Source of the DNA: Lentisphaeria bacterium
Lineage (GTDB): Bacteria; Verrucomicrobiota; Lentisphaeria; Victivallales; Victivallaceae
Length of the DNA stretch: 64,000 nucleotides
Assembly (NCBI GenBank): GCA_900768515.1
Contig: CAAGDG010000058.1
Location: forward strand, 5,663 to 69,662
Reading direction: 5' to 3'
The first letter of the stretch is position 1. Each line of letters starts with the position of its first letter. Of this stretch, positions 2,886 through 17,312 are shown in pieces. A program made the translations under genes and the position numbers. The notes under the pieces are model-generated. The model was not told where the DNA came from and made no database searches. It was given only the letters and a program-made list of their open reading frames with translations.

Positions 2886-3988
2886 TCATACCTCCTGCTC
2901 TAATCTTGGGGATGCGACGCTTTTACGAAAAATAACCTCACACGGGATAAACTCCTGACGTTTGGTTCTGCTGCCGGAGCGATTGAGCTCCACCAGGATC
3001 TCCACGGCCCGCGAACCCACATTCGAAAACGGCTGCCGGACCGTCGAAATCCCGAGCGGCGTGAAAAATAGTTGTCGTCAAAGCCGGAAATCGAAACGTC
3101 TTCCGGAACACGTCTGCCCAGTTTTCCAAGTTCGTCGATCACATTGAGCGCAATCTCGTCGTGACAGCAGATCACCGCGCCGGGGGGCTCCGGAAGCGCC
3201 ATCATCTCCCGGATCTGCCGCCTCCCCTGTTCGGTAAGTGGAACATCATCGATCGCCCGATGCCATTCCGGCCGCACCACCTGCCGATCGGCGGTCAGCT
3301 GGTCGATCACACCGCGAAAACGGTGATCGGCGGAATAAACCCCGGGGAACGTCCGGATGCTGCCGATCCGTCGATGCCCCAGTTCGAAAAGGCGGGCAGC
3401 AATCTGCCGGGTCGCGGAATATCCGTCGCTGCCGACGAAATTCCCGCGGATTATGCCGTTGCAGGCGATCGGGGAATCCACCACCACATAAGGAACGTTG
3501 CAGGCCTCCAGAAAATCGAGCAGCTGGTTGCCGTTCCGATAGTAATCCTCGATCGGCCGGGACTGCGGAGCATAGATGACGCCAAGAGGACGCTCGGTCT
3601 TCAGCAAAGAACTCAACTGCTCGGTCGTCGGCAGGTCCCGCAGCCAGTGGCAGCTCAGGGAACAACCGTATTCGACCGCCTTCGTCTCGATTCCGACCGC
3701 GATCTGGGTGCCGAACAAAGCCGCCTCCGCATGCTGCAGAAACATCACGGTCCTGCCGGAAAACTTCGAAACCGAAACATTTCCGACGAAACAGCCGATC
3801 CCGGGGCGGTGTTCGACCACGCCGGATTCCGCCAGTTCGCGCAGGGCGCTCCGGACGGTGCCGCGGGAAACCCGGAACCGGCGGAGCAGCTGCTGTTCCG
3901 TCGGAAGCCGCTGTCCGACCGGCAGCATGCCGGCGGAAATCTCGCGCGCCAGAGTCTGTATCACTTCCTGTCTCGGTGAGTTTCCCAT
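2886..3988 (-). CDS. AraR-type transcriptional regulator (GntR-family HTH plus LacI/GalR-type sugar-binding domain). Frameshifted in the A5 (T5 on the coding strand) run at 3064-3068.
   Basis: N-terminus [57 protein letters not shown] is a GntR HTH. The middle is a LacI-like periplasmic-binding fold. The main frame degenerates after [10 protein letters not shown] third frame continues [31 protein letters not shown] (the canonical LacI/PurR C-terminus, compare YFTPALTTIHQP) down to the TGA at 2886-2888. One extra T in the T-run restores the frame. The start is placed at the MGNSPRQ Met (3988); an alternative start is at 4030. Confidence 0.7.
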
Positions 3989-4031
3989 CTGCTTTCCCGC
4001 TTTTCTCGGGTTTGTTTTTTCACTGTCCATA

Positions 4032-4060
4032 ATTATAATGAATTTATACCATTCTGACAA
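4032..4060 (-). promoter_or_regulatory. Sigma70-like promoter of the AraR-like regulator (-35 TTGTCA, 17 nt, -10 TATAAT on the minus strand).
   Basis: Minus strand reads ttgtca-gaatggtataaattcat-tataat just upstream of the coding region. This implies the 3988 start with a ~35-nt leader carrying GGGAAAG. Confidence 0.4.
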
Positions 4061-4104: not shown

Positions 4105-4311
4105 AACAACAGGCGGAATTCTTTCCCTCTTCACCGCTTCTCCGCGTTTTTCCTCGAATGAAATTGGGAAACCGCCGCCGGAAACGACCCAAATAAAAAA
4201 GCGGCCCAGAAAAATATCTGCGCCGCGGATGGAGAAAAAGAGACCGGCCCCGCCGGAGGGAATTCGCCGGGGGAAATGCGCCGGGACAAACCGGCAGCAT
4301 CCCCCTTCCGC

Positions 4312-5301
4312 TCAGCCGAGAATGCGCTCGATTCCGGCAAGTTCCTCCGCCGTGAAGTCGAGGTTCCGCAGTCCGGCGACCACGTCGCGGATCTGCTCGG
4401 GACGGCTGGCGCCGATCAGCGCGGAAGTGACCCCGGGACGCCCCAGCAGCCAGGCGATCGCCATCTCCGCCAGCGTCTGTCCGCGCCCGGCGGCAATCCC
4501 GTTCAGCGCCCGGATCTTCGCCATGACCTCATCGGTCAGCGCCTCCGGCTTCAGGAAACCGCCGCGGGCGGCCCGGGAATCGGCCGGGACGCCGTTGAGA
4601 TAACGGTCGGTGAGCATCCCCTGATTCAGCGGCGAGAAGACGATTCCTCCGACGCCCTCCTCCACCAGCAGCCGGAACGACCCCTGTTGCTCGTGTTTGC
4701 GGTCGAGCATGTTGGCCCGGATCTGGTGGATCACAAACGGCGTCTTCAACTCGCGCAGTACCGCGATCGCCTGCCGCGCCGCCTCGGGGCCGTAGTTCGA
4801 AATGCCGGCGTAGAGCGCCCGGCCGGAACGCACGATCTGGTCGAGCGCCAGCATCGACTCCTCCACCGGCGTATCCGGATCGGGCCGGTGGTGGTAGAAG
4901 ATGTCCACGTAATCGACGCCCATCCGTTTCAGGCTCTGGTCACAGCTGGCGATCAGATACTTGCGCGAACCGTGGTCGCCGTAGGGTCCCGGCCACATCC
5001 CGTACCCGGCCTTGGTGGAAATGATCAGTTCGTCGCGGAACGGCTTCAGGTCCTGGGCGAGAATCCGGCCGAAGGTGATCTCCGCCGAACCCGGTTCGGG
5101 ACCGTAGTTGTTCGCCAGGTCGAAGTGGGTGATTCCGAGATCGAACGCGGTCTGCGCCATCTTCCGGCAGTTCTCGTAACGGTCGACGCTTCCGAAGTTG
5201 TGCCAGAGTCCGAGCGAAACCAGCGGCAGCATCAGTCCGCTCCGCCCGCAGCGGCGGTACTGCATCGACTCATATCGTTTTTCATCCGGCTTGTAGAACA
5301 T
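4312..5301 (-). CDS. Aldo/keto reductase (YghZ / L-glyceraldehyde-3-phosphate reductase-like, Kv-beta type).
   Basis: MFYKPDEKRYESMQYRRCGRSGLMLPLVSLGLWHNFG N-terminus and an AKR barrel throughout. RBS GAAAGGA lies before the ATG at 5301. Confidence 0.85.
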   Translation of the reverse strand: MFYKPDEKRYESMQYRRCGRSGLMLPLVSLGLWHNFGSVDRYENCRKMAQTAFDLGITHFDLANNYGPEPGSAEITFGRILAQDLKPFRDELIISTKAGYGMWPGPYGDHGSRKYLIASCDQSLKRMGVDYVDIFYHHRPDPDTPVEESMLALDQIVRSGRALYAGISNYGPEAARQAIAVLRELKTPFVIHQIRANMLDRKHEQQGSFRLLVEEGVGGIVFSPLNQGMLTDRYLNGVPADSRAARGGFLKPEALTDEVMAKIRALNGIAAGRGQTLAEMAIAWLLGRPGVTSALIGASRPEQIRDVVAGLRNLDFTAEELAGIERILG

Positions 5302-5325
5302 GTGCGCATCCTTTCTCAATTCAAC

Positions 5326-6507
5326 TCACGACTGGGGAAAACGGTAGAGGACCTCATCCAGTCTGCCCGCCACTCCGAGCTCCCGCAGGAAACGGAAGTG
5401 CGGCAGAAAGAATCCCACTTCATAAAGATTGTGCGAATCGCTGCCGAACGAAAGTTTCACCCCCTTCTTCACGCAGAGCGAAAAGAACTCCGGCTCGGGA
5501 TTGTTGTGGTGAAAATTGATCTCGGCGGCGACGCCGTAACGCTTCAGCAGCTCCGCGACCGGTTCGAAAAGCTCCTCCGGAACCGGCTGCCGGAGTCCGA
5601 ATGGAAACACCCGGAAAGGGTGCGCGAGAATCTGCACGCCGTACCGCAGCAGCGATTCGGTCCGGAACAGGAACTCCCGCTTCACCGCCTCCCGGTCGTC
5701 CTTCCGGGAGAGATGGTGGACCGCCCCCAGCCGCACCTGCGCCAGCCGCCGGTCGGAATCCTCCAGCAGCGCGTCGCCGTTGCCGTCGACATCGATCTCA
5801 AATCCGCGAAGGAAACGACCGTGCCCCTCCCCTTCGCGCCACGCTCCGACAAGTTGCGGAACCCGCGACGGAATCCCGCTCTCCGCCCGGTCGCGCCAGA
5901 CGCCGCGCCCCGGCCAGTAAAGCTCGGGAGAAAAGTAGAGCTGCCCGGAGTGTTCGGAGAACGAGAGCGCCTCCAGATTGGAGAGCCGCGCCATCTCCAG
6001 CGCCTTTCGGACATCCATATTCTCGCTGCAGTACGCGACCCGGGTATGCACATGAAAATCGATCAATCCCGGAACCTTCGGCTCCACCATCGGACAGCAT
6101 TCCACCCGCACACTCCCGTCGGCGGCTAGCTCCGCCACCAGTGCGTTGAAGGGAGGCTCTCCGAACCCGGGCAGTTCCCCGGCGGCATTCCGGATCCGCT
6201 CCAGCAGAGCGGCGGGGGTCTCCCGCCCCCGGTCGGTCTCGATTTCGGCGGGAAGCTCCGGCAGTTCGACCGATGCCGGACGCGCGAGGTAGAGAACCGG
6301 GACCTTCCGCTCGAACCGTTTTTCCGACGCCCGGAGCGTCTCCAGAAAATCCGGCTCCGCAGCGCCGTTTCCGACCGTCAGTTCTCCGGAAACCAGCACC
6401 AGCTGCACCGGGACGAACCGGTCGAAAACGCGGATTGCCCGCAGCAGAAACAACTCCCGCAGATCCCCGCTGCGGTGGCGGAGATTGTGAATCACCGCGA
6501 CTTTCAT
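5326..6507 (-). CDS. PHP-domain (polymerase/histidinol-phosphatase-like) metal-dependent phosphoesterase with an N-terminal extension.
   Basis: LIDFHVHTRVAYCSENMDV...LSFSEHSG PHP motifs. AGGAGG RBS present. Confidence 0.7.
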   Translation of the reverse strand: MKVAVIHNLRHRSGDLRELFLLRAIRVFDRFVPVQLVLVSGELTVGNGAAEPDFLETLRASEKRFERKVPVLYLARPASVELPELPAEIETDRGRETPAALLERIRNAAGELPGFGEPPFNALVAELAADGSVRVECCPMVEPKVPGLIDFHVHTRVAYCSENMDVRKALEMARLSNLEALSFSEHSGQLYFSPELYWPGRGVWRDRAESGIPSRVPQLVGAWREGEGHGRFLRGFEIDVDGNGDALLEDSDRRLAQVRLGAVHHLSRKDDREAVKREFLFRTESLLRYGVQILAHPFRVFPFGLRQPVPEELFEPVAELLKRYGVAAEINFHHNNPEPEFFSLCVKKGVKLSFGSDSHNLYEVGFFLPHFRFLRELGVAGRLDEVLYRFPQS

Positions 6508-6529: not shown

Positions 6530-7213
6530 CTACTTCCAATTCAGAACCGGCCAGCCGGCCGCCTCCGCCACGCGCCGCAGCGCCCCTGAGGGGTTGACCG
6601 CGTGGGGAAAACCGACCGCTTCGAGAATATCCCGGTCGTTGATGCTGTCGCCATAGTAGGCGAACCGGGAGAGCGGAATTTTCATGTCATCCGCCAGAGT
6701 CCGGAGAATCCGGACCTTGCCGGCACCGGCGCCGTAGATGCCGGCGATCCTGCCGGTGCAGCGCCCATCCTCCGTCTCCAGCCGGGTCCCGGCCAGGAGC
6801 GGAATTCCGAAATAGTCCGCCACCGGACGCGCCAGCCGGTCGTTGGTCGAAGTGAGAATGCCGAGCCGCGCCCCCCGGTCGCGCAGTTCCGCGACCAGCG
6901 CCATCGCGTCGTCGTAGACATGCGGCAGAATCCGTTCGCGAAAATGGAGCCGGCTGAGTTCATCCACCTCCTCCACGCTCCGCCCGGCGAACTCCCGCAG
7001 TTGAAAGCGGAGGAACGCGTCGACATCCATCGTTCCGGCATTGTAGTCCTCGAAGAAGCGCTCCGCCTCCTCCAGCGCAGACGCGGGAGCGAGACCGTGT
7101 TCCACCGCGAACTCCTTCCAGGTGACGTCGCAGTCCGCCCCGATCAGGGTGTGGTCCATGTCGAAAAACCAGCACTCCGGAAGCGGCGCCCTCTCCGGTT
7201 TCAGCTCCTTCAT
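6530..7213 (-). CDS. HAD-superfamily hydrolase (HAD-IB-like).
   Basis: FFDMDHTL motif I and YGDSINDRDIL motif IV. The start ATG overlaps the stop of the upstream phosphohexomutase (ATGA). Confidence 0.8.
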   Translation of the reverse strand: MKELKPERAPLPECWFFDMDHTLIGADCDVTWKEFAVEHGLAPASALEEAERFFEDYNAGTMDVDAFLRFQLREFAGRSVEEVDELSRLHFRERILPHVYDDAMALVAELRDRGARLGILTSTNDRLARPVADYFGIPLLAGTRLETEDGRCTGRIAGIYGAGAGKVRILRTLADDMKIPLSRFAYYGDSINDRDILEAVGFPHAVNPSGALRRVAEAAGWPVLNWK

Positions 7214-8576
7214 CCCAGCATCTCCTGTATCTCCCCGGTGAACCGGCGGAGCAGCTCCTCCGCCCGGCCCGGATCCGAACTTTCAACGTTGAGCCGCAGA
7301 ATCGGTTCGGTATTCGAGGAGCGCAGCAGCACCCGCCCCTCCGGCAGATCGAAACGCAGCCCGTCGAAGGTCAGAGGCTGACAATCCGCATAGGTGTGCG
7401 TCAGCGTCTCGATCACCTCCCGCGAACGGATCGGCGGAAGCGTAAAACGGGTGGAGAGATTGCAGAACGGCGGGAAGTCGCCGACAATTTCCGAAAGTTT
7501 CCGCTCCGAAAAAGCCAGCCGTTCCAGCACCAGCGCCATCGCCGTAAAACTGTCGCGCCCGGGGTGGACCCGGCGGTAGATCACGCCGCCGCAGTTGCCC
7601 TCGCCGCCGATGCAGCTGTCGCATTCGATCATCTTCTCGACCACGTTGATCTCCCCGACCTTGGCGCACTCCAGCTTGCAGCCGTAGGAACGGGTGATCT
7701 CCTCGACCAGGCGCGAGGTCTGCATGTTGACCACCACCGGACCGGGATCGCCGCCGTCGAGCACCTGATCGACCGCCAGCGCGACCGTGAAATGCGGATT
7801 CAACGCCTCGCCGCGGTCGGTGACCACAGTCAGCCGGTCCCCATCCGGATCCTGCCCGAAACCGACGTCGCAGGATTCGCGGCGGACCGTTTCACACAGT
7901 TCGCCCAGATTCTCGGGGAGCGGTTCCGGCGGCCGGTTGAAACCGCCGTAGATCTCATCATTGAGAGTGAAAACCTCGCAGCCGAGCTTCCGCAGAAATT
8001 CCGCGCTGCAGAGCGAACCAACCCCGTTGGCGCAATCGACCGCCACCCGGAACTTCCGGGCGCGGATGGCATTGACATCCACCACTTCGAAGATCCGTTC
8101 CGCATGCCGTTCGAACATCCCTTCCATCCGGCTGACGCTCCGCAACGCCTCCTCGCTCCGATAGGGGAGCGACCCCTGGCTGTAGAGATCGAAGAGTTCC
8201 GACGCCTCGCCGGAGGCCAGAAACGTCCCCCGGGGACCGATGAACTTCAAGGCGTTCCAGTCCGCCGGATTGTGGCTGGCGGTGATCGCCACCCCGCCGG
8301 AGGCCCCGGAATCGGTCACCGCGAACTGTATGGTCGGGGTCGGCACCACGCCGAGCTTGACCACCTGGCAGCCCGCGGACAGCAGCCCGGCGGTCAGCGC
8401 ATCCTCAAACATCTCCCCGGTGGCCCGGGTGTCGCGCCCGACCACAATCCGGCCGCCGCCGAGATAGAACCCGAACGCGGCGCCCAGCTCCATGACCAGA
8501 TGGGCGGTCAACCCCTCGCCGACGATGCCGCGCACACCGCTCTCGGAAAATTTCAATGTATTGATTCTGTTCACCT
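7210..8576 (-). CDS. Phosphohexomutase (phosphomannomutase/phosphoglucomutase/GlmM family), catalytically intact.
   Basis: Carries TASHNP (phosphoserine loop), FGQDPDGDRL (Mg loop), GGEGNGG (sugar loop) and RSSNTEP (phosphate loop). Probable GTG start at 8576 or 8582, 6-12 nt after the stop of the upstream paralog. The track ORF 7210..9132 over-extends the 5' end. Confidence 0.8.
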
Positions 8577-8588
8577 TCACCGCCCCCG

Positions 8589-9965
8589 CTAACTCATGAG
8601 CCGTTCCCAGACCAGCCGGGCGCGCCAGGCGCGTTCGGCGGCGAGATCGCCGTTCTTCGATTCCGAAATCAACCGGAGCACCGCCTCGGTGCCGGAGAGC
8701 CGCAAGCTTAAAAATCCATCCGGCCAGTCGAAGCGCAGTCCATCCGTCTCCGAAAGCGCGACCTCCTCCCCGAACTCCCGGCGCAGCTGCCGCAGCAGCC
8801 GGTAGGCGTGCGGAGAATCGGCGGCGATGGACTGTTTCACCATGTGAAAACGGGGAAGTTTTCCCAGCTGCGCACTCAACGGCTCCTCGCGGACCGCCAC
8901 CGATTCCAGCAGAAGTCCCGCCATCAGAAACGCATCGAACCCCAGCAGTTTCGAGGTCGTGAAACTGCCGCTGCCCTCCCCGGCGAGCACCGCGCCGGAG
9001 GAACGCATCAGATCGATCACGCTCGCCTGTCCGACCCGGGACCGCAGAAGCCGGCAGCGGTGCTTTGCGACCACCTCGTCGAGAGTCCGGCTGCTGCAGA
9101 TGTTGCTGACCACCGCGGAACCCGGTTCGCACCGGTCCAGGAAGTAGTCGGCCGCAAGCGGATAGGTCAACTCCTCACTCAACGGTTCCCCGGAGTCGCT
9201 GACCACCCCCATCCGGCTCATGTCGCGGTTGAACACCAGGCCGGCCGCCGCTCCCAGCGGAACGATGATCGAACGGATCGGCGCCTCGCTTCGCGGACGC
9301 GGCTCCGGATCGCGCGGAACCACCGCCGACGGCATGTCGTTGATCGCGATCAGCTTGAGGTTCAAAAGCGATGCGAAACGCTGCGCGTATTGGGCGCCGG
9401 CGCCGTTGCAGAAATCCCCGACCACGGTCAGGCCGGCGGCGGCGATCCGGTCGCAATCGAGCGACTTCTTCAGAAAGTTCCAATACGCTTCAATCTGGGC
9501 CGGGTCGATCCGGCTCGGAGCCGGAATCAGCCGCGCGGTCGCATAGTGGAACCGACGGGCATGGTAGAGGTCGAACAGCTCCCGCTGCCGCAGCGGATCG
9601 AAATACGAACCGTCCGCCGCCAGCGGAATCAATGCATTCCAGCCGGCCGCCTGATGCCCCCCGGTAATCAGAATCCCGCCGTCATAGCGGAACCGGGCAA
9701 TCAGATAGTGCATCATTCCGGCGGTCAGAATTCCGCCGTCGACCACCGAACACCCCCCGCCGGCGAGCGATGCGGAGACCGCGCACTGAAGCAGTTCGGC
9801 CGAACCGCGCGGATCGATGCCGACCAGGATCCGCGCCCCCTCCCCCGCCATCGTCGCAAAAGCGGCCGCGAAATCCCCGGCCGCCGCGGGAGTGAGGCCG
9901 GGCCCGACCACCCCCCGCATTCCGGCAGCGCCGATGCTGAGCTGCCGTGTCTTGTAGTTCTGCAT
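8589..9965 (-). CDS. Phosphohexomutase-family paralog with degenerate catalytic Ser and Mg-binding loops (putative pseudoenzyme).
   Basis: Same four-domain architecture. The phosphoserine motif reads ITGGHQAAGWNAL instead of TASHNP. The DxDxDR loop reads NRDMSRM. The sugar loop (AGEGSGS) and phosphate loop (RLSGTEA) are retained. Confidence 0.75.
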   Translation of the reverse strand: MQNYKTRQLSIGAAGMRGVVGPGLTPAAAGDFAAAFATMAGEGARILVGIDPRGSAELLQCAVSASLAGGGCSVVDGGILTAGMMHYLIARFRYDGGILITGGHQAAGWNALIPLAADGSYFDPLRQRELFDLYHARRFHYATARLIPAPSRIDPAQIEAYWNFLKKSLDCDRIAAAGLTVVGDFCNGAGAQYAQRFASLLNLKLIAINDMPSAVVPRDPEPRPRSEAPIRSIIVPLGAAAGLVFNRDMSRMGVVSDSGEPLSEELTYPLAADYFLDRCEPGSAVVSNICSSRTLDEVVAKHRCRLLRSRVGQASVIDLMRSSGAVLAGEGSGSFTTSKLLGFDAFLMAGLLLESVAVREEPLSAQLGKLPRFHMVKQSIAADSPHAYRLLRQLRREFGEEVALSETDGLRFDWPDGFLSLRLSGTEAVLRLISESKNGDLAAERAWRARLVWERLMS

Positions 9966-10105: not shown

Positions 10106-10134
10106 TTGACAACCCGCACCGGCAGGTGTATATT
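10106..10134 (+). promoter_or_regulatory. Sigma70-like promoter (TTGACA, 17 nt, TATATT) for the IscU-like/GGGtGRT operon.
   Basis: ttgaca-acccgcaccggcaggtg-tatatt, 47 nt before the AAGGAGA-ATG at 10181. Confidence 0.55.
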
Positions 10135-10180
10135 ACTGAAAATCCGCACCGTAAACCAAATCCTCGTAAGGAGAACCAAC

Positions 10181-10885
10181 ATGAGTTGTCCGTATCAGTG
10201 CTCGCACGAAGTTGAGCAGATGTGCCGCGTCGCCAAAGGCGCCAAGCATGGTCCGGCCCCGATTCCGGAAGAAGGGAAGTGGGTCAAATCCAAGGAAATT
10301 TCCGACGTTTCCGGCCTCACCCACGGCGTGGGCTGGTGTGCGCCGCAGCAGGGCGCCTGCAAGCTGACGCTGAACGTCAAGAACGGCGTGATCCAGGAGG
10401 CGCTGGTCGAAACCCTCGGCTGCTCCGGCATGACCCACTCCGCCGCGATGGCGTCGGAGATTCTGCCGGGCAAGACCATTCTCGAAGCGCTGAACTCCGA
10501 CCTGGTCTGCGACGCGATCAACGTCGCGATGCGCGAACTCTTCAAGCAGATCGTCTACGGCCGTTCCCAGACCGCGTTCAGCGAGAACGGTCTTCCGATC
10601 GGCGCCGGACTCGAGGACCTCGGCAAGGGACTGCGTTCCCAGGTCGGAACCATGTTCTCGACCCTGGAGAAGGGGCCGCGCTATCTGGAGATGGCCGAAG
10701 GCTACGTGCTCGAACTCGGACTCGACGAGAACAGCGAAATCATCGGTTACAAGTTCGTCCACCTCGGCAAGATGATGGAGGCGATCCGCAAGGGCGTCGA
10801 ACCGGCGGAGGCGTTCAAATCGAACGTCAAGAGCTACGGCCGCTTCGATGAGGCCGTCAAGAAGATCGACCCGCGCAAGGAATAA
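10181..10885 (+). CDS. IscU/NifU-N-like Fe-S scaffold-fold protein with a Cys-rich N-terminal extension and a ~100-aa C-terminal extension.
   Basis: GVGWCAPQQGACKLTLNVKNGVIQEALVETLGCSGMTHSAAMASEILPGKTILEA...LVCDAINVA aligns with IscU GAPACGDVMKLQIKV..GCGSAIASS...GKSLDEA...HCSILAEDAI, with all three Cys conserved. Extra N-terminal CPYQC...C. Start at MSCPYQ with RBS AAGGAGA. Confidence 0.7.
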   Translation: MSCPYQCSHEVEQMCRVAKGAKHGPAPIPEEGKWVKSKEISDVSGLTHGVGWCAPQQGACKLTLNVKNGVIQEALVETLGCSGMTHSAAMASEILPGKTILEALNSDLVCDAINVAMRELFKQIVYGRSQTAFSENGLPIGAGLEDLGKGLRSQVGTMFSTLEKGPRYLEMAEGYVLELGLDENSEIIGYKFVHLGKMMEAIRKGVEPAEAFKSNVKSYGRFDEAVKKIDPRKE

Positions 10886-10899
10886 AGGAGTCCAACGTC

Positions 10900-11898
10900 A
10901 TGAGCGTGAAATTTGAAGGTTACGAGCGCCGGATCGCCCAAATCGAAAAAGCGCTGAAGGAATACGGTCTCGAATCGCTCGAAGCGGCCCGCGACCTCTG
11001 TCTCTCGAAGGGTGTCAACGTCGAGGAGATCGTCCGCGGCGTGCAGCCGATCGCGTTTGAAAACGCGGTCTGGGCCTACACCCTCGGCGCCGCCATCGCG
11101 CTGAAGAAGAACTCGAAGAACGCCGCCGAAGCCGCTGAAAACATCGGCATCGGACTGCAGGCGTTCTGCATCCCGGGTTCGGTCGCCGCCAACCGCGAAG
11201 TCGGTCTCGGCCACGGCAACCTCGCCGCGATGCTGCTGCGCGACGAAACCAAGTGCTTCTGCTTCCTCGCCGGTCACGAATCGTTCGCGGCGGCGGAGGG
11301 TGCGATCGGCATCGCCAAGACCGCCAACAAGGTCCGCAAGGAGCCGCTCCGCGTGATCCTGAACGGCCTCGGCAAGGACGCCGCCTACATCATCAGCCGG
11401 ATCAACGGCTTCACCTACGTCGAAACCGAATACGACTACTACACCGGCGATCTCAAGGAGGTCTTTGAGAAGGCGTTCTCCAACGGTCCGAAGGCGGCGG
11501 TCAAGTGCTACGGCGCGGACGACGTCTCCGAGGGCGTTGCGATCATGATCAAAGAGGGCGTCGACGTCTCCATCACCGGAAACTCGACCAACCCGACCCG
11601 CTTCCAGCATCCGGTCGCCGGCACCTACAAGAAATGGGCGATCGAACACGGCCGCAAATACTTCAGCGTTGCCTCCGGCGGCGGCACCGGCCGCACGCTG
11701 CATCCGGACAACATGGCTGCCGGTCCGGCCAGCTACGGCATGACCGACACCATGGGCCGCATGCACGGCGATGCGCAGTTCGCGGGTTCGTCGAGCGTCC
11801 CGGCGCACGTCGAAATGATGGGGCTGATCGGCATGGGCAACAACCCGATGGTCGGCGCCTCGGTCGCCGTCGCGGTGGCCGTTTCCCAGGCGAAGTAA
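10900..11898 (+). CDS. GGGtGRT-family protein (uncharacterised family).
   Basis: Contains the literal SGGGTGRT motif. 332 aa. Lies 14 nt downstream of the IscU-like gene with its own AAGGAG RBS. Confidence 0.8.
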   Translation: MSVKFEGYERRIAQIEKALKEYGLESLEAARDLCLSKGVNVEEIVRGVQPIAFENAVWAYTLGAAIALKKNSKNAAEAAENIGIGLQAFCIPGSVAANREVGLGHGNLAAMLLRDETKCFCFLAGHESFAAAEGAIGIAKTANKVRKEPLRVILNGLGKDAAYIISRINGFTYVETEYDYYTGDLKEVFEKAFSNGPKAAVKCYGADDVSEGVAIMIKEGVDVSITGNSTNPTRFQHPVAGTYKKWAIEHGRKYFSVASGGGTGRTLHPDNMAAGPASYGMTDTMGRMHGDAQFAGSSSVPAHVEMMGLIGMGNNPMVGASVAVAVAVSQAK

Positions 11899-12059: not shown

Positions 12060-12572
12060 ATGATGGCGGGTTCCGGAAAAAAGATCGATGCGATGGAGAA
12101 AGCGCTGCGCATTCTCAATTTCCGCGCCTGCTCCGAACTGGAGCTGCGCAGGAAACTGCGGACTGCCGGCTACTCCTCCACGGAGACGGCCGACGCGATC
12201 GAACGCTGCAGAAAGCTCGGGGTCCTGAACGACCGGCTGCTGGCGGAGGATTACGCGCGGAGCCTCTCCGACCGCGGCTGCGGCGCACGGATGGTCCGGT
12301 TCCGCCTCGGCCGCCGGGGACTCGGCACGCGGAGCATCGAAGCCGCGCTCGAAGCGACCGCGGAGGGCGAGGCGGAAGCCTGCCGCCGGGCACTGGCGGC
12401 CAAACTGCGCACGCTCGAACGAGAAAGCGATCCGCGCAGAAAACGGGAGAAGGCGTTCCGGTTTCTGGCGGGACGGGGATTTTCCGCCGACCGGATCCGG
12501 GAGGCGTTTGCAGAAGCCGACTTTTCCGGCGGAACAACGGAGAAATGCGACGATGAGAATTTTACTGATTGA
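12060..12572 (+). CDS. recX: RecX-family regulatory protein.
   Basis: KALRILNFRACSELELRRKLRTAGYS and three helical repeats typical of RecX. No recA in the window. Confidence 0.65.
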   Translation: MMAGSGKKIDAMEKALRILNFRACSELELRRKLRTAGYSSTETADAIERCRKLGVLNDRLLAEDYARSLSDRGCGARMVRFRLGRRGLGTRSIEAALEATAEGEAEACRRALAAKLRTLERESDPRRKREKAFRFLAGRGFSADRIREAFAEADFSGGTTEKCDDENFTD

Positions 12573-13245
12573 GGATGACGCCCGTACCGCGGAATTCATC
12601 CTGAAAGGGCTGGCCCAGTCCGGATACACCACGATCCACGCCTCCGACGGGGCGGACGGCCTCTTCAAGGCGCGCCATGAAAACTGCGACCTGGCGATCA
12701 TCGACATCATGCTGCCGAAGATGGACGGCTTCACCGTGATCGAGAAACTGCGCGCCGCGGGTTCCACCCTGCCGGTGATCGTGCTCAGCGCCCGCAATTC
12801 GGTCGAGGACCGGATCAAGGGACTCCAGAACGGCGGTGACGACTACCTGGTCAAACCGTTTTCCTTCTCGGAACTGCTCGCCCGGATCCAGGCGCTGCTG
12901 CGCCGCGCCGCCTCCACCGCGGAACCGACCACCATCACGGTCGGAGACCTCTCGATCGACCTGCTCGCGCGAAAGGTCTACCGGGGAACGGAGCGGATCG
13001 ACATCCAGCCCCTCGAATTCAGCCTGCTCGAATACCTCGCCCGCAACGCCGGGCGCGTTGTCTCCAAAACCATGATCATGGACCACGTCTGGGAGTACAA
13101 TTTCGACCCGCAGACCAACATCGTGGAGACCCGGATGTGCCGGCTCCGCGAGAAAATCGATAAGCCATTCGCGGAAAAGTTGATTCATACGGTACGGGGA
13201 TTCGGCTATGTGCTCGAACCGCAGGCGGATTTTCAGCACCGTTAA
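12553..13245 (+). CDS. OmpR-family response regulator (REC plus winged-helix).
   Basis: MRILLIEDD...DLAIIDIMLPKMDG...LSAR. C-terminal trans_reg_C (VRGFGYVL). GGAGAAA RBS. Overlaps the recX 3' end. Confidence 0.85.
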   Translation: MRILLIEDDARTAEFILKGLAQSGYTTIHASDGADGLFKARHENCDLAIIDIMLPKMDGFTVIEKLRAAGSTLPVIVLSARNSVEDRIKGLQNGGDDYLVKPFSFSELLARIQALLRRAASTAEPTTITVGDLSIDLLARKVYRGTERIDIQPLEFSLLEYLARNAGRVVSKTMIMDHVWEYNFDPQTNIVETRMCRLREKIDKPFAEKLIHTVRGFGYVLEPQADFQHR

Positions 13246-14827
13246 GTTCCGGATCGCGTTCTGGTACGCGGTGCTCTTCGCCGTGACCGGCGCGGTTTCC
13301 CTGGCGTTCGTCTTCGTCGAACTGCGGCGGACCATGCTCCGGGGAATTGACCGCGCCCTCGAACGGGGTGTCCGAAACTACCAGATCGAATACCTGACCG
13401 GGAAACGGCATCAGCTGTTCGACCGCGAAGTGCCGCTCGACCGCCTCGCGCCGGAAGCCCGCCGCGCCTTCGAAGAACGGTTTCCGGGAGTGCAGCTGCT
13501 GCTCGTCTTTGAAACCCGAAACGCCGGGGGGCTCTACCAGACCGCCTTCGGGACCGTGAATCATCAGCTCTTTGAGCTGCGGCTCGAATCGGACGGCAGC
13601 GTCTACTCCCGCCGGATCGATCCGGCCTATCATCTGCCCCTGCTGCGGCAGACGCTCGATGACGCCGCACGGGCGGAGGGCGCCAACAACCTGGTCTGCC
13701 GGCTGCTTTCCGCCTCCGGCAAGGTCGAGGCTGGCACCCCGCTGAGTCCCGGCAACGGGTTTCCGCCGGCGGACCCGGCAAAACAGACCCTCCGCACAGT
13801 CGGCCAATACCGGGTTCTGCAGCTGCCGCTCTTCGACGGAGGGGTTCTCGAAGCCGCCCGCTCTCTGGAGGCGACGGACCGGCTGCTGCGCGAATATGTG
13901 CTGACCGCGTCCGGAGTCTTCCTCGCACTGCTCGCAGTCTCTCTGCTGGTCGGCTGGCTGCTGGCCGGAAAGTTCCTCGCCGGCATCCGGAGAGTCAGCC
14001 AGGCCGCCCGGGAGATCGCCGGCGGAGATTTCAGCCGCCGGGTCGAATCCCACGGCGACGGCAGCGAAATCGAAGAGCTGGTCGAAGCCTTCAACACCAT
14101 GAACGCCAACACGGAACGGCTGTTTGAAGAACTCCGCACCGTCACCGACGACGTCGCCCACGACCTGCGTACGCCCCTGACCCGGATCCGGGGACTTGCC
14201 GAAATCACGGTCAGCGGACCGCAGGAGCTGGCACGCTACCAGGAGATGGCCGCGGTCACGGCGGAAGAGTGTGCCGGCATGCTGCAGATCATCAACACCA
14301 TGCTCGAAATCACCCGGATGGAACACGCGATCGAGACGCTCGAGCGCAACCGGCTCGACTGGGCGGAACTGCTCCGCCGCGCGGAAGAACTCTACCAGCC
14401 TTCCGCCGAAGATCTCGGAATCCGTCTGGAGTTCCGTCTTCCGGAACACGCCTGGGTCTTCGCCGACCGGCTCAAGCTCCAGCGCGCAGCCGCCAACCTT
14501 CTCGACAACGCACTCAAATTCACCCCCTCCGGCGGAACCGTCACCGTCACACTGGAACCGGAAGAAACCCAATGGCTGCTGCGGGTCGCCGATACCGGCT
14601 GCGGCATCGCGCCGGAAAACATCGAGCATGTATTCGAGCGTTTTTTCCGCAGCGATCCCAGTCGCTCCCGCCCCGGGAACGGACTCGGACTGTCGCTGGT
14701 CCGGGCGATCGCCCTCGCGCACGGCGGCAGTGTCGAAGTTTCAAGCGAACTGGGCAGAGGAACCGAATTCCGTTTCCGCCTTCCGAAGGCAGAAGAACTC
14801 CCCGGAGAAACGGAGAATGGGAAATGA
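13208..14827 (+). CDS. Sensor histidine kinase (2 TM, HAMP, HisKA, HATPase).
   Basis: HDLRTPLTRIRGLAEI H-box. GLGLSLV / GTEFRFRLP ATPase motifs. Start overlaps the RR by 38 nt. Confidence 0.85.
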   Translation: MCSNRRRIFSTVKFRIAFWYAVLFAVTGAVSLAFVFVELRRTMLRGIDRALERGVRNYQIEYLTGKRHQLFDREVPLDRLAPEARRAFEERFPGVQLLLVFETRNAGGLYQTAFGTVNHQLFELRLESDGSVYSRRIDPAYHLPLLRQTLDDAARAEGANNLVCRLLSASGKVEAGTPLSPGNGFPPADPAKQTLRTVGQYRVLQLPLFDGGVLEAARSLEATDRLLREYVLTASGVFLALLAVSLLVGWLLAGKFLAGIRRVSQAAREIAGGDFSRRVESHGDGSEIEELVEAFNTMNANTERLFEELRTVTDDVAHDLRTPLTRIRGLAEITVSGPQELARYQEMAAVTAEECAGMLQIINTMLEITRMEHAIETLERNRLDWAELLRRAEELYQPSAEDLGIRLEFRLPEHAWVFADRLKLQRAAANLLDNALKFTPSGGTVTVTLEPEETQWLLRVADTGCGIAPENIEHVFERFFRSDPSRSRPGNGLGLSLVRAIALAHGGSVEVSSELGRGTEFRFRLPKAEELPGETENGK

Positions 14828-15965: not shown

Positions 15966-17312
15966 TCACTTTTCCAGCTGGAAGAGAAAGACGTTTCTGG
16001 CCCCCTTCGAAAGCTGCAGCTTCCGGCGGACCAGGCCGCCGTCGGTGGAAATCTCCACATCGTAGTCGCCGTAGAAACCGTGGAAACGGTTGTCGCCGCC
16101 CGGAACGAAATTGATCTCCGTCTCGGTCCGCCACTCTTCGCGGATCAGGCGGCGCAGCACCTTGTAGGCCGGTTTCGGCGTGAAGTCGTAATTGACCAGT
16201 CCGGCCCGGAGCCGATTCTCCCCCTCCTCCGACCCCGGAGGAGCATAGGCGGCGGTGCCGTCGACCAGATTCCACCAGGTGATCCCCTCCACCGCCGCAT
16301 GGCTGAACCAGAGCCGGTAGAGCTTCTCCGTCGCCAGCTCCTGGAAACGGTCGCCGTCACCGAGGGAACGGCGGCTGATCACGCTGACCTCGGAAAGGTT
16401 GACCGGTACGCCCAGCTTTCCGAAAAGGTCGAGCACCGCCAGAAGATTGCGGGGACGCAGCGGAACCTCCGCCTCCTGCAGCATCGTGTCGAACATGTGG
16501 TACTGGACGCCGAATCCGCCGAGACGGAAACCGTGCTCCAGCAGCCGCTGCGCCAGCAGAAACGAGGCGGTATTGTCCCCCTGGAAACTCCACCAGGCGC
16601 GGTCGTCGTTGTAGATGAGCTGGCTGTCCGGGAACAGCTCCGCGGCCCGGCGGAAGGCGTAATCGACGTATCCGTCGCCGAGTTCGGGGATGTCGGGACG
16701 CAGCAGCGGGAAGCGCGTCTGCGCCTCGTTGACGGTATCCCAGATGTGAATCCGGTCCGCATAACGCGCCGCGATCGCCCGCATCCGGCGGTCGAGCGCG
16801 GAACGAAATCCCGCCACGGTGGTCGGAATCCACTTCGGCAGGAACTGATGCCAGCAGAGCGGATGCCCCTTCGGAATCAGGCCGAAACGGTCGCAGAACT
16901 CCAGCACCCGGTCCGGCGGCGGGCGGCGGTAGATCGGCGGAGAATGCCGTTCGAAGCGGGGCTTTCCCTCTTCCGGCTCGAGGTCGGACCAGTAGAACGG
17001 AATCACTGCGTGGTTGAAAACCGCGGCGAAGGTCTGCTCGTAGGCCTCATTCTGTTCCGCCTCCGGGAACTGGTCCACCATGAAGGCGTTGCAGCCGAAT
17101 TTGAATTCACTGCCGGTCTGCCGCAGCCGGACCCGGCCGCCCGGCAGAGGCTTTCCCGCGGCATCCAGAAGCTCGACCCGCCCGAATCCCTTGCGGTTGC
17201 ATTCGGTTCCGGTCCGGATGCGGAACTCCACCTCGGAATCCTCCTCCAGGAGATACTTCAGAATTCGCACCGCCTCCTCGGACATCCCTTTCTCAACCAT
17301 CTTTTCCTCCAC
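15966..17312 (-). CDS. Glycoside hydrolase family 10 (endo-1,4-beta-xylanase-like), cytoplasmic (no signal peptide).
   Basis: IHIWDTVNEA (acid/base motif), IYNDDRAWW (YNDY-like), NLSEVSV (nucleophile region). Confidence 0.75.
   Translation of the reverse strand: MEEKMVEKGMSEEAVRILKYLLEEDSEVEFRIRTGTECNRKGFGRVELLDAAGKPLPGGRVRLRQTGSEFKFGCNAFMVDQFPEAEQNEAYEQTFAAVFNHAVIPFYWSDLEPEEGKPRFERHSPPIYRRPPPDRVLEFCDRFGLIPKGHPLCWHQFLPKWIPTTVAGFRSALDRRMRAIAARYADRIHIWDTVNEAQTRFPLLRPDIPELGDGYVDYAFRRAAELFPDSQLIYNDDRAWWSFQGDNTASFLLAQRLLEHGFRLGGFGVQYHMFDTMLQEAEVPLRPRNLLAVLDLFGKLGVPVNLSEVSVISRRSLGDGDRFQELATEKLYRLWFSHAAVEGITWWNLVDGTAAYAPPGSEEGENRLRAGLVNYDFTPKPAYKVLRRLIREEWRTETEINFVPGGDNRFHGFYGDYDVEISTDGGLVRRKLQLSKGARNVFLFQLEK

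What the first reader, a model, noticed from the sequence alone, without database searches (positions are those of the whole stretch)
8589..9965. Tandem phosphohexomutase paralogs, the upstream copy lacking catalytic Ser and Mg ligands
Two adjacent, same-strand phosphoglucomutase/phosphomannomutase-family genes sit 6-12 nt apart. The downstream one has all four canonical loops (TASHNP, DPDGDR, GEGNGG, RSSNTEP). The upstream one keeps the sugar and phosphate loops (AGEGSGS, RLSGTEA) but has TGGHQAA in place of TASHNP (no phosphoserine) and NRDMSRM in place of DxDxDR. This looks like a ligand-binding pseudoenzyme co-transcribed with its active paralog, a HAD phosphatase, a PHP phosphoesterase and an aldo-keto reductase. 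It is possibly a regulatory or chaperone subunit, or a sugar-phosphate sensor.
Basis: partly seen in the sequence, partly recalled or inferred. Interest (0 to 1): 0.55.

Follow-up and report, generated by a model that had tools for sequence, protein, structure and literature searches.

The report
Serine-less partner of a sugar-phosphate mutase
A sugar-phosphate mutase gene sits next to a sister copy that lost its catalytic serine and most metal ligands long ago, yet the copy is kept under strong selection and coupled to the working gene in two bacterial phyla, so it is probably a non-catalytic partner subunit of a kind not described for this enzyme family.

Summary
Gene A (8589-9965, minus strand) and gene B (7210-8580, minus strand) are full-length four-domain phosphohexomutase paralogs, 30% identical and 8 nt apart. 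B has every catalytic motif. A has Gly in place of the phosphoserine, N-R-D-M-S-R in place of DxDxDR, and Ile in place of the catalytic Lys.

A is neither an error nor a decaying gene:
- About 100 orthologs, down to 35% identity, all lack the serine.
- dN/dS is 0.10 for A and 0.13 for B.
- A and B diverge at the same rate across 73 genomes.
- The AlphaFold model is confident and matches archaeal PGM/PMM (TM 0.91).

In 90 of 96 testable genomes (Lentisphaerota, Kiritimatiellia, Verrucomicrobiota, Aminicenantes) A lies directly upstream of a canonical B, usually with touching stop and start codons. Other lineages have lost only the serine, and they show the same pairing.

Best reading: A is a phosphotransfer-dead but still ligand-binding subunit that assembles with B. 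The closest solved homolog is a stable tetramer. The complex and the role of A are inferred, not shown. The PHP and aldo-keto reductase genes are lineage-specific neighbours. I found no published description. I rate it a new variant of a known kind (a pseudoenzyme partner).

The parts
8589..9965 (-). Gene A: four-domain alpha-D-phosphohexomutase paralog, 458 aa, lacking the phosphoserine nucleophile. Proposed non-catalytic partner subunit.
   Evidence: Pfam domains I-III pass and domain IV is borderline. TIGR03990 scores 285 bits against a cut-off of 439. AF2 pLDDT is 94.4 and TM is 0.91 to 9du5. dN/dS is 0.096.
9636..9668 (-). Ex-phosphoserine loop of A, residues 100-110 (ITGGHQAAGWN). G103 replaces the catalytic Ser and H104 is invariant. 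Three residues further on, I113 replaces the catalytic Lys.
   Evidence: Alignments to 1wqa and 4il8. Family column counts: G 88, A 6, R 1, S 0. Among loci, 100 of 100 lack Ser.
9213..9230 (-). Ex-metal loop of A, residues 246-251 (NRDMSR) in place of DxDxDR. Only the middle Asp and the Arg are kept.
   Evidence: The family consensus is [N/S]-S-D-x-[S/G]-R, with D248 and R251 invariant.
8964..8981 (-). Sugar-binding loop of A, residues 329-334 (GEGSGS), retained. Ser at 332 is typical of A; B has Asn there.
8682..8702 (-). Phosphate-binding loop of A, residues 422-428 (RLSGTEA). R422 and T426 are invariant and S424 is mostly kept. The Asn of RxSNTEP is lost.
8581..8588 (-). 8-nt spacer between the stop codon of A and the GTG start of B.
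   Evidence: In relatives the two genes overlap by 1-11 nt or abut.
7210..8580 (-). Gene B: canonical archaeal-type phosphohexomutase, 456 aa (predicted phosphoglucosamine mutase or PGM/PMM), with all four catalytic loops.
   Evidence: Pfam domains I-IV pass. TIGR03990 scores 460 bits against a cut-off of 439. 1wqa scores 266 bits. 83 of 85 orthologous partners are fully canonical.
6530..7213 (-). HAD-IB family hydrolase, overlapping the stop of B by 4 nt. It travels with the pair in part of the Lentisphaerota. Its role is unknown.
5326..6507 (-). Weak PHP-like protein. It is in the same probable operon here, but a homolog was found only in the 88%-identical relative.
4312..5319 (-). Aldo-keto reductase resembling L-glyceraldehyde-3-phosphate reductase. 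It is the last gene of the probable operon and is lineage-specific.
4244..4256 (-). Terminator-like GC hairpin followed by a T-run, downstream of the reductase gene.
   Evidence: This is a consensus match only. The total number of such matches does not exceed the shuffled expectation.

Best explanation
Gene A encodes a conserved paralog of the neighbouring canonical phosphohexomutase B that can no longer transfer phosphate. An old duplication produced the pair. The upstream copy first lost the phosphoserine (Ser to Gly), then two of its three metal-binding Asp, the catalytic Lys and several other residues that are conserved in B. It kept the fold, the sugar-loop Glu and Ser, the phosphate-loop Arg, Ser and Thr, and the N-terminal Arg.

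A and B are made together from translationally coupled genes. They most likely assemble into a hetero-oligomer, either an AB dimer or an A2B2 tetramer like the homotetramer of the closest solved homolog. In that complex B would do the mutase chemistry. A would contribute a remodelled cleft that still binds a ligand, plausibly a sugar phosphate or sugar 1,6-bisphosphate, and would stabilise, activate or regulate B. This is the 'prozyme' type of arrangement.

Shown: loss of the catalytic residues, conservation, purifying selection, an intact predicted fold, and synteny with tight gene spacing.
Inferred: the physical complex, ligand binding by A, and any effect on B.
For: - Catalytic residues are lost in A and present in B.
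- The family was retrieved by overall similarity, and none of 95 members has Ser at the nucleophile position. H104, D248, R251, R422 and T426 are invariant.
- Among loci from GTDB genomes, 100 of 100 A copies lack Ser, while 83 of 85 partners are fully canonical.
- Purifying selection: dN/dS is 0.096 for A and 0.131 for B.
- A and B evolve at the same rate (distance ratio 0.98-1.06, r = 0.93) across 73 genome pairs.
- The fold is intact: pLDDT 94.4 and TM 0.91 to 9du5.
- Synteny: 6 of 6 diverse contigs and 90 of 96 testable GTDB loci have B directly downstream.
- In 79 of 90 loci the N-terminal GxRG motif of B starts only 23-65 nt after the stop of A, which implies overlapping or abutting genes.
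- A is monophyletic relative to the B sequences used to root the tree.
- Lineages with only Ser to Gly (L132), or Ser to Gly plus DxDxE (L133), also sit upstream of a canonical paralog.
- The closest solved homolog is a stable D2 tetramer (PMC11940775).
Against: - No tool here could test a physical A-B interaction. The structure tool predicts single chains only, and no natural A-B fusion was seen.
- In one Victivallis subclade A is no longer next to B (L040, L052, L061, L084, L087, L120, L131). In L129 one gene is inserted between them. Cis-coupling is therefore not obligatory.
- The replacement residues are themselves conserved (G103, N246, S247, S250, Q313, F343, Y161). That would also fit a new activity rather than a dead site.
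- The substrate of B is not established. It could be GlcN, Glc or Man phosphate.
Confidence: 0.55

Rival explanations
1. A is a free-standing protein that binds a sugar phosphate or sugar bisphosphate (a sensor, buffer or carrier). It does not form a complex with B. The adjacency reflects only shared regulation or shared pathway.
For: The ligand-contact residues of the sugar and phosphate loops are conserved. A persists as an intact, conserved gene where it is unlinked from B.
Against: A-then-B order with touching or overlapping stop and start codons is kept across two phyla and down to 35% identity. That pattern is more typical of subunits made in fixed ratio. The homologs are obligate oligomers.
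Confidence: 0.17
2. A is an active enzyme with altered chemistry. One possibility is metal-independent phosphoryl transfer through the invariant His104, which sits next to the former serine. Another is a different reaction on a phosphosugar.
For: His104, Asp248 and Arg251 are invariant. The substitutes for the lost residues are specific and conserved rather than drifting (G103; [N/S]-S-D-x-[S/G]-R). A is as constrained as B.
Against: - The loss is broad: the equivalents of Lys118, Asp242 and Asp246, plus the H339, R342 and N423 that are conserved in B.
- Position 250 is Gly in about 17% of members, so it cannot be an essential ligand.
- The graded series starts with loss of the nucleophile alone while everything else is intact. 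That looks like inactivation first and remodelling later.
- No precedent was found in the literature searches.
Confidence: 0.13
3. A is a sequencing or assembly artefact, or a recently inactivated gene on its way to being lost.
For: None beyond the missing catalytic residues.
Against: - An identical protein occurs in an independent assembly, and about 100 orthologs share the same substitutions.
- dN/dS is 0.096.
- The reading frame is intact and the structure model is confident.
Confidence: 0.01

Closest known systems
Archaeal-type phosphohexomutases: T. kodakarensis PGM/PMM (9DU5), P. horikoshii PH0923 (1WQA), S. tokodaii ST0242 (2F7L), and NCBIfam TIGR03990 'Arch_GlmM'
   Same: Same subfamily by sequence and fold. 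A has TM 0.89-0.92 to these structures and they are its best PDB sequence hits. B passes the TIGR03990 cut-off. These homologs are oligomers.
   Different: All of them carry TASHN, DxDxDR and the Lys, and they are homo-oligomers encoded by a single gene. A lacks these residues, scores 285 bits against the 439 cut-off, and is paired with a second gene.
Vertebrate PGM5 (aciculin) and Paramecium parafusin, the non-enzymatic or signalling members of the superfamily
   Same: They are members of the same superfamily that have been recruited to roles other than catalysis.
   Different: They belong to the eukaryotic PGM1 branch (TM about 0.77, 16% identity). PGM5 keeps TASH and all four active-site loops (PMC5570346). 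They bind cytoskeletal or exocytosis partners, not a paralogous enzyme.
'Prozyme'-type pseudoenzyme partners, such as T. brucei AdoMetDC prozyme (PMC5201418), and the non-catalytic GlgD subunit of Firmicute ADP-glucose pyrophosphorylase (from my own knowledge, not checked here)
   Same: A catalytically dead paralog is kept under selection and works as a subunit of its active sister enzyme. In the GlgC/GlgD case the two genes are also adjacent in one operon.
   Different: These are unrelated folds and reactions. For the A/B pair the complex and any activating effect are only inferred.
Bacterial GlmM (TIGR01455) and its regulatory complex with the c-di-AMP cyclase CdaA (7OJS, 7OLH, 9G69)
   Same: A phosphohexomutase acts as a protein-protein interaction partner through its dimeric form.
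   Different: GlmM is catalytically competent in that complex and its partner is not a paralog. A and B are only distantly related to bacterial GlmM (A scores 99 bits and B 216 bits against a cut-off of 447).

Membership tests
alpha-D-phosphohexomutase superfamily (homology and fold) | Four-domain architecture (Pfam PGM_PMM_I, II, III, IV) | tested here: met
   Domains I-III are above the gathering cut-off. Domain IV scores 22.7 bits against a cut-off of 23.1. The AF2 model superposes on 9du5, 1wqa and 2f7l at TM 0.89-0.92 over the full length.
alpha-D-phosphohexomutase, catalytically competent enzyme | Phosphoserine loop T-[AG]-S-H-N with the Ser nucleophile | tested here: not met
   G103 aligns with Ser108 of PaPMM/PGM and with the Ser of 1wqa. 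None of 95 family members and none of 100 locus copies has Ser there.
alpha-D-phosphohexomutase, catalytically competent enzyme | Metal-binding loop D-x-D-x-D-R | tested here: not met
   The loop reads N-R-D-M-S-R. Only the middle Asp and the Arg are kept.
alpha-D-phosphohexomutase, catalytically competent enzyme | Conserved catalytic Lys after the W/Y-N-G/A-x motif (Lys118 in PaPMM/PGM) | tested here: not met
   The residue is I113 here and I, V or T across the family. Lys is present in 83 of 85 B partners.
alpha-D-phosphohexomutase, catalytically competent enzyme | Sugar-binding loop G-E-x-[SN]-G | tested here: met
   The loop reads GEGSGS. E330 is Glu in 82 and Asp in 16 of 98 family sequences, and S332 is Ser in 90.
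alpha-D-phosphohexomutase, catalytically competent enzyme | Phosphate-binding loop R-x-S-[NG]-T-E-P | tested here: inconclusive
   The loop reads RLSGTEA. R422 and T426 are invariant and S424 is Ser in 86 of 98 family sequences. The Asn conserved in B and the Pro are not kept.
NCBIfam TIGR03990 archaeal-type phosphoglucosamine mutase (equivalog) | Whole-protein score at or above the curated cut-off of 439 bits | tested here: not met
   A scores 285.5 bits. B scores 460.5 bits and passes.
Pseudoenzyme partner of an active paralog ('prozyme' type) | Paralog of an active enzyme, with catalytic residues lost in a conserved way | tested here: met
Pseudoenzyme partner of an active paralog ('prozyme' type) | Maintained by purifying selection | tested here: met
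   dN/dS is 0.096. The evolutionary rate equals that of B.
Pseudoenzyme partner of an active paralog ('prozyme' type) | Conserved genomic coupling with the active paralog | tested here: met
   90 of 96 testable loci have B downstream. 79 of 90 have near-zero spacing. The exceptions are confined to one Victivallis subclade.
Pseudoenzyme partner of an active paralog ('prozyme' type) | Physical complex with the active paralog, and an effect on its activity | not testable with these tools
   Only single-chain structure prediction is offered. There is no interaction or activity data. Oligomerisation is known only for the homolog 9DU5.

The most novel reading that the evidence does not exclude
A is not dead but re-purposed. 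In the former phosphoserine-Mg2+ site the acidic ligands have been replaced by neutral hydrogen-bond donors (Gly103 backbone amide, His104, Asn246, Ser247, Ser250, Arg251). That site could act as a metal-free pocket for a second phosphate. A would then bind hexose or hexosamine 1,6-bisphosphate specifically and hold or hand over this obligatory activator to B, as a built-in priming or reservoir subunit. Alternatively it could transfer phosphate through His104. Either way this would be a heteromeric phosphohexomutase with divided labour, spread across PVC bacteria and Aminicenantes.
Probability: 0.15. Interest if true: 0.8.

Novelty: new variant of a known kind. Interest (0 to 1): 0.62.

Why it matters
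The alpha-D-phosphohexomutases are usually described as enzymes with four universally conserved active-site loops. Even the inactive human PGM5 keeps them (PMC5570346). They are also described as the products of a single gene.

This family has no nucleophile, yet it evolves as slowly as its canonical neighbour and stays coupled to it in at least two phyla. That points to a two-gene, probably heteromeric, form of an enzyme. If B is the cell's phosphoglucosamine mutase, this enzyme feeds cell-wall and polysaccharide precursor synthesis in Lentisphaerota, Kiritimatiellia, Verrucomicrobiota and Aminicenantes.

It also offers a natural stepwise series for studying how a pseudoenzyme subunit arises: Ser to Gly alone, then loss of a metal ligand, then the fully remodelled site.

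There is a practical annotation point. The NCBI records seen here call A 'hypothetical protein' and the JGI records call it 'phosphomannomutase'. Neither name is adequate.

Tried and rejected
I replaced it with a hand-made degenerate DNA pattern for G242...[S]D.[SG]R...E.LSEE.
The version extended by L270 worked. The pattern misses the window itself, because R247 is a CGN codon, and it misses L003.
- The pattern encodes the degenerate metal loop. Metal-loop counts in those loci are therefore true by construction. The Ser-loop state and the adjacency of B are independent of the pattern.
- The listing of cluster members gave almost no taxonomy.
- The first dN/dS script printed nothing, because the closest GTDB loci lack an adjacent B. 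I solved this by fetching the 88%-identical relative L130.
- Six full-text literature searches were run. The five aimed at this question (Ser-less or pseudoenzyme phosphohexomutases, heterodimeric GlmM) found nothing relevant. The sixth located the 9DU5 paper.
- I considered that a nearby Ser or Thr might act as a substitute nucleophile and rejected it. Position 101 is Thr or Ser in 76 of 95 members but Gly in 19, and position 102 is Gly or Ala. Only His104 is invariant.
- I considered that PHP, the reductase and HAD form one conserved pathway with the pair and rejected it for PHP and the reductase.
- I looked for natural A-B fusion proteins. None appeared in the hit lists (lengths up to 516 aa). 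The long stop-to-stop ORFs are read-through in GC-rich DNA, not fusions.

Full report
**1. What is in the window**

The minus strand carries a tight row of five genes.
- A: 8589-9965, 458 aa.
- B: 7210-8580, 456 aa, GTG start, 8 nt after the TAG of A.
- A HAD-IB hydrolase: 6530-7213, overlapping the stop of B by 4 nt.
- A weak PHP-like protein: 5326-6507.
- An aldo-keto reductase: 4312-5319.

A terminator-like hairpin follows at 4256-4244. It is a consensus match only.

A and B are the only phosphohexomutase-family genes in the 64 kb. Both have the PGM_PMM domains. Domain IV of A scores 22.7 bits against a cut-off of 23.1. Both are closest to the archaeal-type model TIGR03990. B passes it (460 bits, cut-off 439) and A does not (285 bits). 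A and B are 30% identical over 446 aa.

**2. The catalytic residues**

I aligned A to P. horikoshii 1wqa and to P. aeruginosa PMM/PGM (4il8, native numbering).
- Lost: G103 replaces the phosphoserine (Ser108). I113 replaces Lys118. N246 and S250 replace the metal ligands Asp242 and Asp246.
- Kept: H104 (His109), D248 (Asp244), R251 (Arg247), E330 and S332 (Glu325 and Ser327), R422, S424 and T426 (Arg421, Ser423 and Thr425), and R17 (Arg20).

B has every canonical residue.

**3. Not an error and not decay**

- An identical protein exists in an independent assembly.
- A similarity search returned about 97 relatives, down to 35% identity. None of the 95 informative sequences has Ser at position 103 (G 88, A 6, R 1). 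H104, D248, R251, R422 and T426 are invariant. The metal loop reads [N/S]-S-D-x-[S/G]-R.
- Against the 88%-identical relative L130, dN/dS is 0.096 for A and 0.131 for B.
- Over 73 genomes that have both genes, A and B diverge at the same rate (distance ratio 0.98-1.06). Their pairwise distances correlate with r = 0.93.
- The AlphaFold2 model of A is confident (pLDDT 94.4, pTM 0.92). It superposes on T. kodakarensis PGM/PMM 9du5, on 1wqa and on 2f7l at TM 0.89-0.92.

**4. The pairing is the conserved feature**

- Six diverse contigs all show A followed immediately by a canonical paralog. The junctions overlap or abut (ATGA, TGATG).
- I scanned one genome per GTDB species with a degenerate DNA pattern. 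Of these, 118 carry an A gene. The other two, both Actinomycetota, are chance matches.
- Of the 96 loci with enough downstream sequence to test, 90 have B next on the same strand.
- In 79 of those 90, the N-terminal GxRG motif of B begins only 23-65 nt after the stop of A. In B that motif sits about 11-15 residues in. The genes must therefore overlap or nearly touch.
- 83 of 85 partners are fully canonical (Ser, His, DxDxDR, Lys).
- The taxa named in the records are Lentisphaerota (Victivallales, Lentisphaeria), Kiritimatiellia, Verrucomicrobiota and Candidatus Aminicenantes (Acidobacteriota). Some MAGs labelled 'Eubacteriales' or 'Armatimonadetes' cluster inside the Aminicenantes group.
- In a neighbour-joining tree, A is monophyletic relative to the B sequences used for rooting.

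The pattern encodes the degenerate metal loop, so that feature is selected by construction in these loci. The Ser-loop state and the adjacency of B are independent of it.

**5. Exceptions and intermediates**

- All A genes without an adjacent B fall in one Victivallis subclade: L040, L052, L061, L084, L087, L120 and L131. That subclade also contains the window and L130, where the genes are adjacent. It also contains L129, where a 227-aa membrane-protein gene is inserted between A and B. Unlinking is therefore a derived, local event. A stays intact where it happens.
- A profile search of 1.84 billion cluster representatives found further non-canonical relatives.
- P0158 has only Ser to Gly (ITAGHG, with DADGDR and the Lys intact). 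P0135 has Ser to Gly plus DADGER. Both lie directly upstream of a canonical paralog (L132, L133).
- All the upstream copies aligned read GEGSG (GDGSG or GEGCG in three) where the canonical B copies read GE-G/H-N-G or GEGGSG.
- The series reads as loss of the nucleophile first, then progressive remodelling of the metal site and loss of the Lys.

**6. How the pocket of A differs from B**

- A has lost several residues that are conserved in B, beyond the Ser, the Lys and the two Asp. These are the N-P of TASHNP, H339, R342 (Phe in A) and N423.
- A has its own conserved set: Y161, R223, E260, E265, Q313, S332, F343 and K377.
- The cleft is thus remodelled and constrained, not drifting. This argues for ligand binding, or less probably for a new activity, and against a purely structural filler role.

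**7. Mechanism proposed**

The closest solved homolog is a stable D2 homotetramer, built as a dimer of dimers (PMC11940775). The pair also shows tight gene spacing, fixed gene order and equal evolutionary rates.

The most economical reading is a hetero-oligomer. B carries out the phosphoserine- and Mg-dependent mutase reaction. A is a non-catalytic, ligand-binding partner, as in 'prozyme' systems (PMC5201418). I put this at about 0.55.

The rivals are:
- a free-standing binder or sensor (about 0.17);
- a neo-functionalised enzyme, for example one using His104 (about 0.13);
- an artefact or a decaying gene (about 0.01).

The complex, ligand binding by A and any effect on B are inferences. No tool available here could test them.

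**8. The rest of the operon**

A HAD-IB gene follows B in about 13 Lentisphaerota loci. A homolog of the PHP-like gene was found only in L130. Homologs of the reductase follow the pair only in L130 and L103. The conserved unit is A-B, sometimes A-B-HAD. The PHP and reductase genes are local additions.

**9. Comparison with what is known**

- No paper describing a Ser-less bacterial phosphohexomutase or a heteromeric one was found.
- The known non-enzymatic members of the superfamily, PGM5 and parafusin, are eukaryotic PGM1-branch proteins. PGM5 keeps TASH and all the loops.
- The NCBI records seen here label A 'hypothetical protein' and the JGI records label it 'phosphomannomutase'.
- I file A as a member of the superfamily by fold and homology. 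It is not a competent mutase and not a TIGR03990 member. It is a new variant of the pseudoenzyme-partner theme.

**10. Verdict**

The scope is much wider than one genome. Interest is 0.62.

Noticed in passing
L132 5001-7933 and L133 5001-7811: These are intermediate forms of the upstream paralog. One has only Ser to Gly, with the metal loop and the Lys intact. The other has Ser to Gly plus DxDxE. Each sits directly upstream of a canonical paralog, which gives a stepwise series of degeneration.
   Followed up: partly
L131 8001-9374; L040, L052, L061, L084, L087, L120; L129 5518-8000: In one Victivallis subclade the Ser-less gene is unlinked from B. In L131 it follows enolase. In L129 a 227-aa membrane-protein gene is inserted between A and B. 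Where B lies in these genomes is unknown.
   Followed up: partly
L008 6397-7767 and L122 (B partner): In one gut Lentisphaeria clade the 'canonical' partner is itself aberrant: TASQH, DPDGDS, and SYS[GE]S in place of SNTEP. The Ser is kept. Whether either copy is active there is unclear.
   Followed up: no
L024 and L086 (both from assembly JBATYS01, Aminicenantaceae): One MAG carries two separate A-B pairs on different contigs. This could be real paralogy, strain mixture or contamination.
   Followed up: no
window 10106-11898 (+): A divergently transcribed pair lies upstream of A: a weak NifU/IscU-like protein and a GGGtGRT-family protein (PF14057, E 2e-195) of unknown function. A strong sigma-70-like match (TTGACA-17-TATATT) at 10106-10134 overlaps the mechanical TTG start. 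The real start of the first gene is therefore probably further downstream.
   Followed up: no
window 6530-7213 (-) and about 13 Lentisphaerota loci (for example L003 10740-11399): A HAD-IB hydrolase (TIGR01490) follows B immediately, often overlapping its stop codon, in part of the Lentisphaerota. It may belong to the same functional unit, but its substrate is unknown.
   Followed up: partly
window 2900-4060 (-), 12060-14827 (+), 15966-17312 (-): The neighbouring genes are a GntR/periplasmic-binding-type regulator, RecX, an OmpR-type response regulator with a HAMP histidine kinase, and a GH10 xylanase-family protein. In the 88% relative L130 a PMT-family glycosyltransferase gene lies between the reductase and the GntR gene. 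It is absent from the window.
   Followed up: no
L016, L042, L043, L050, L053, L054, L071, L088, L117, L123, L126 (record titles 'uncultured Eubacteriales'); L116 ('Armatimonadetes'): The A proteins of these MAGs cluster inside the Aminicenantes clade in the tree. Their record-level taxonomy is probably wrong.
   Followed up: no
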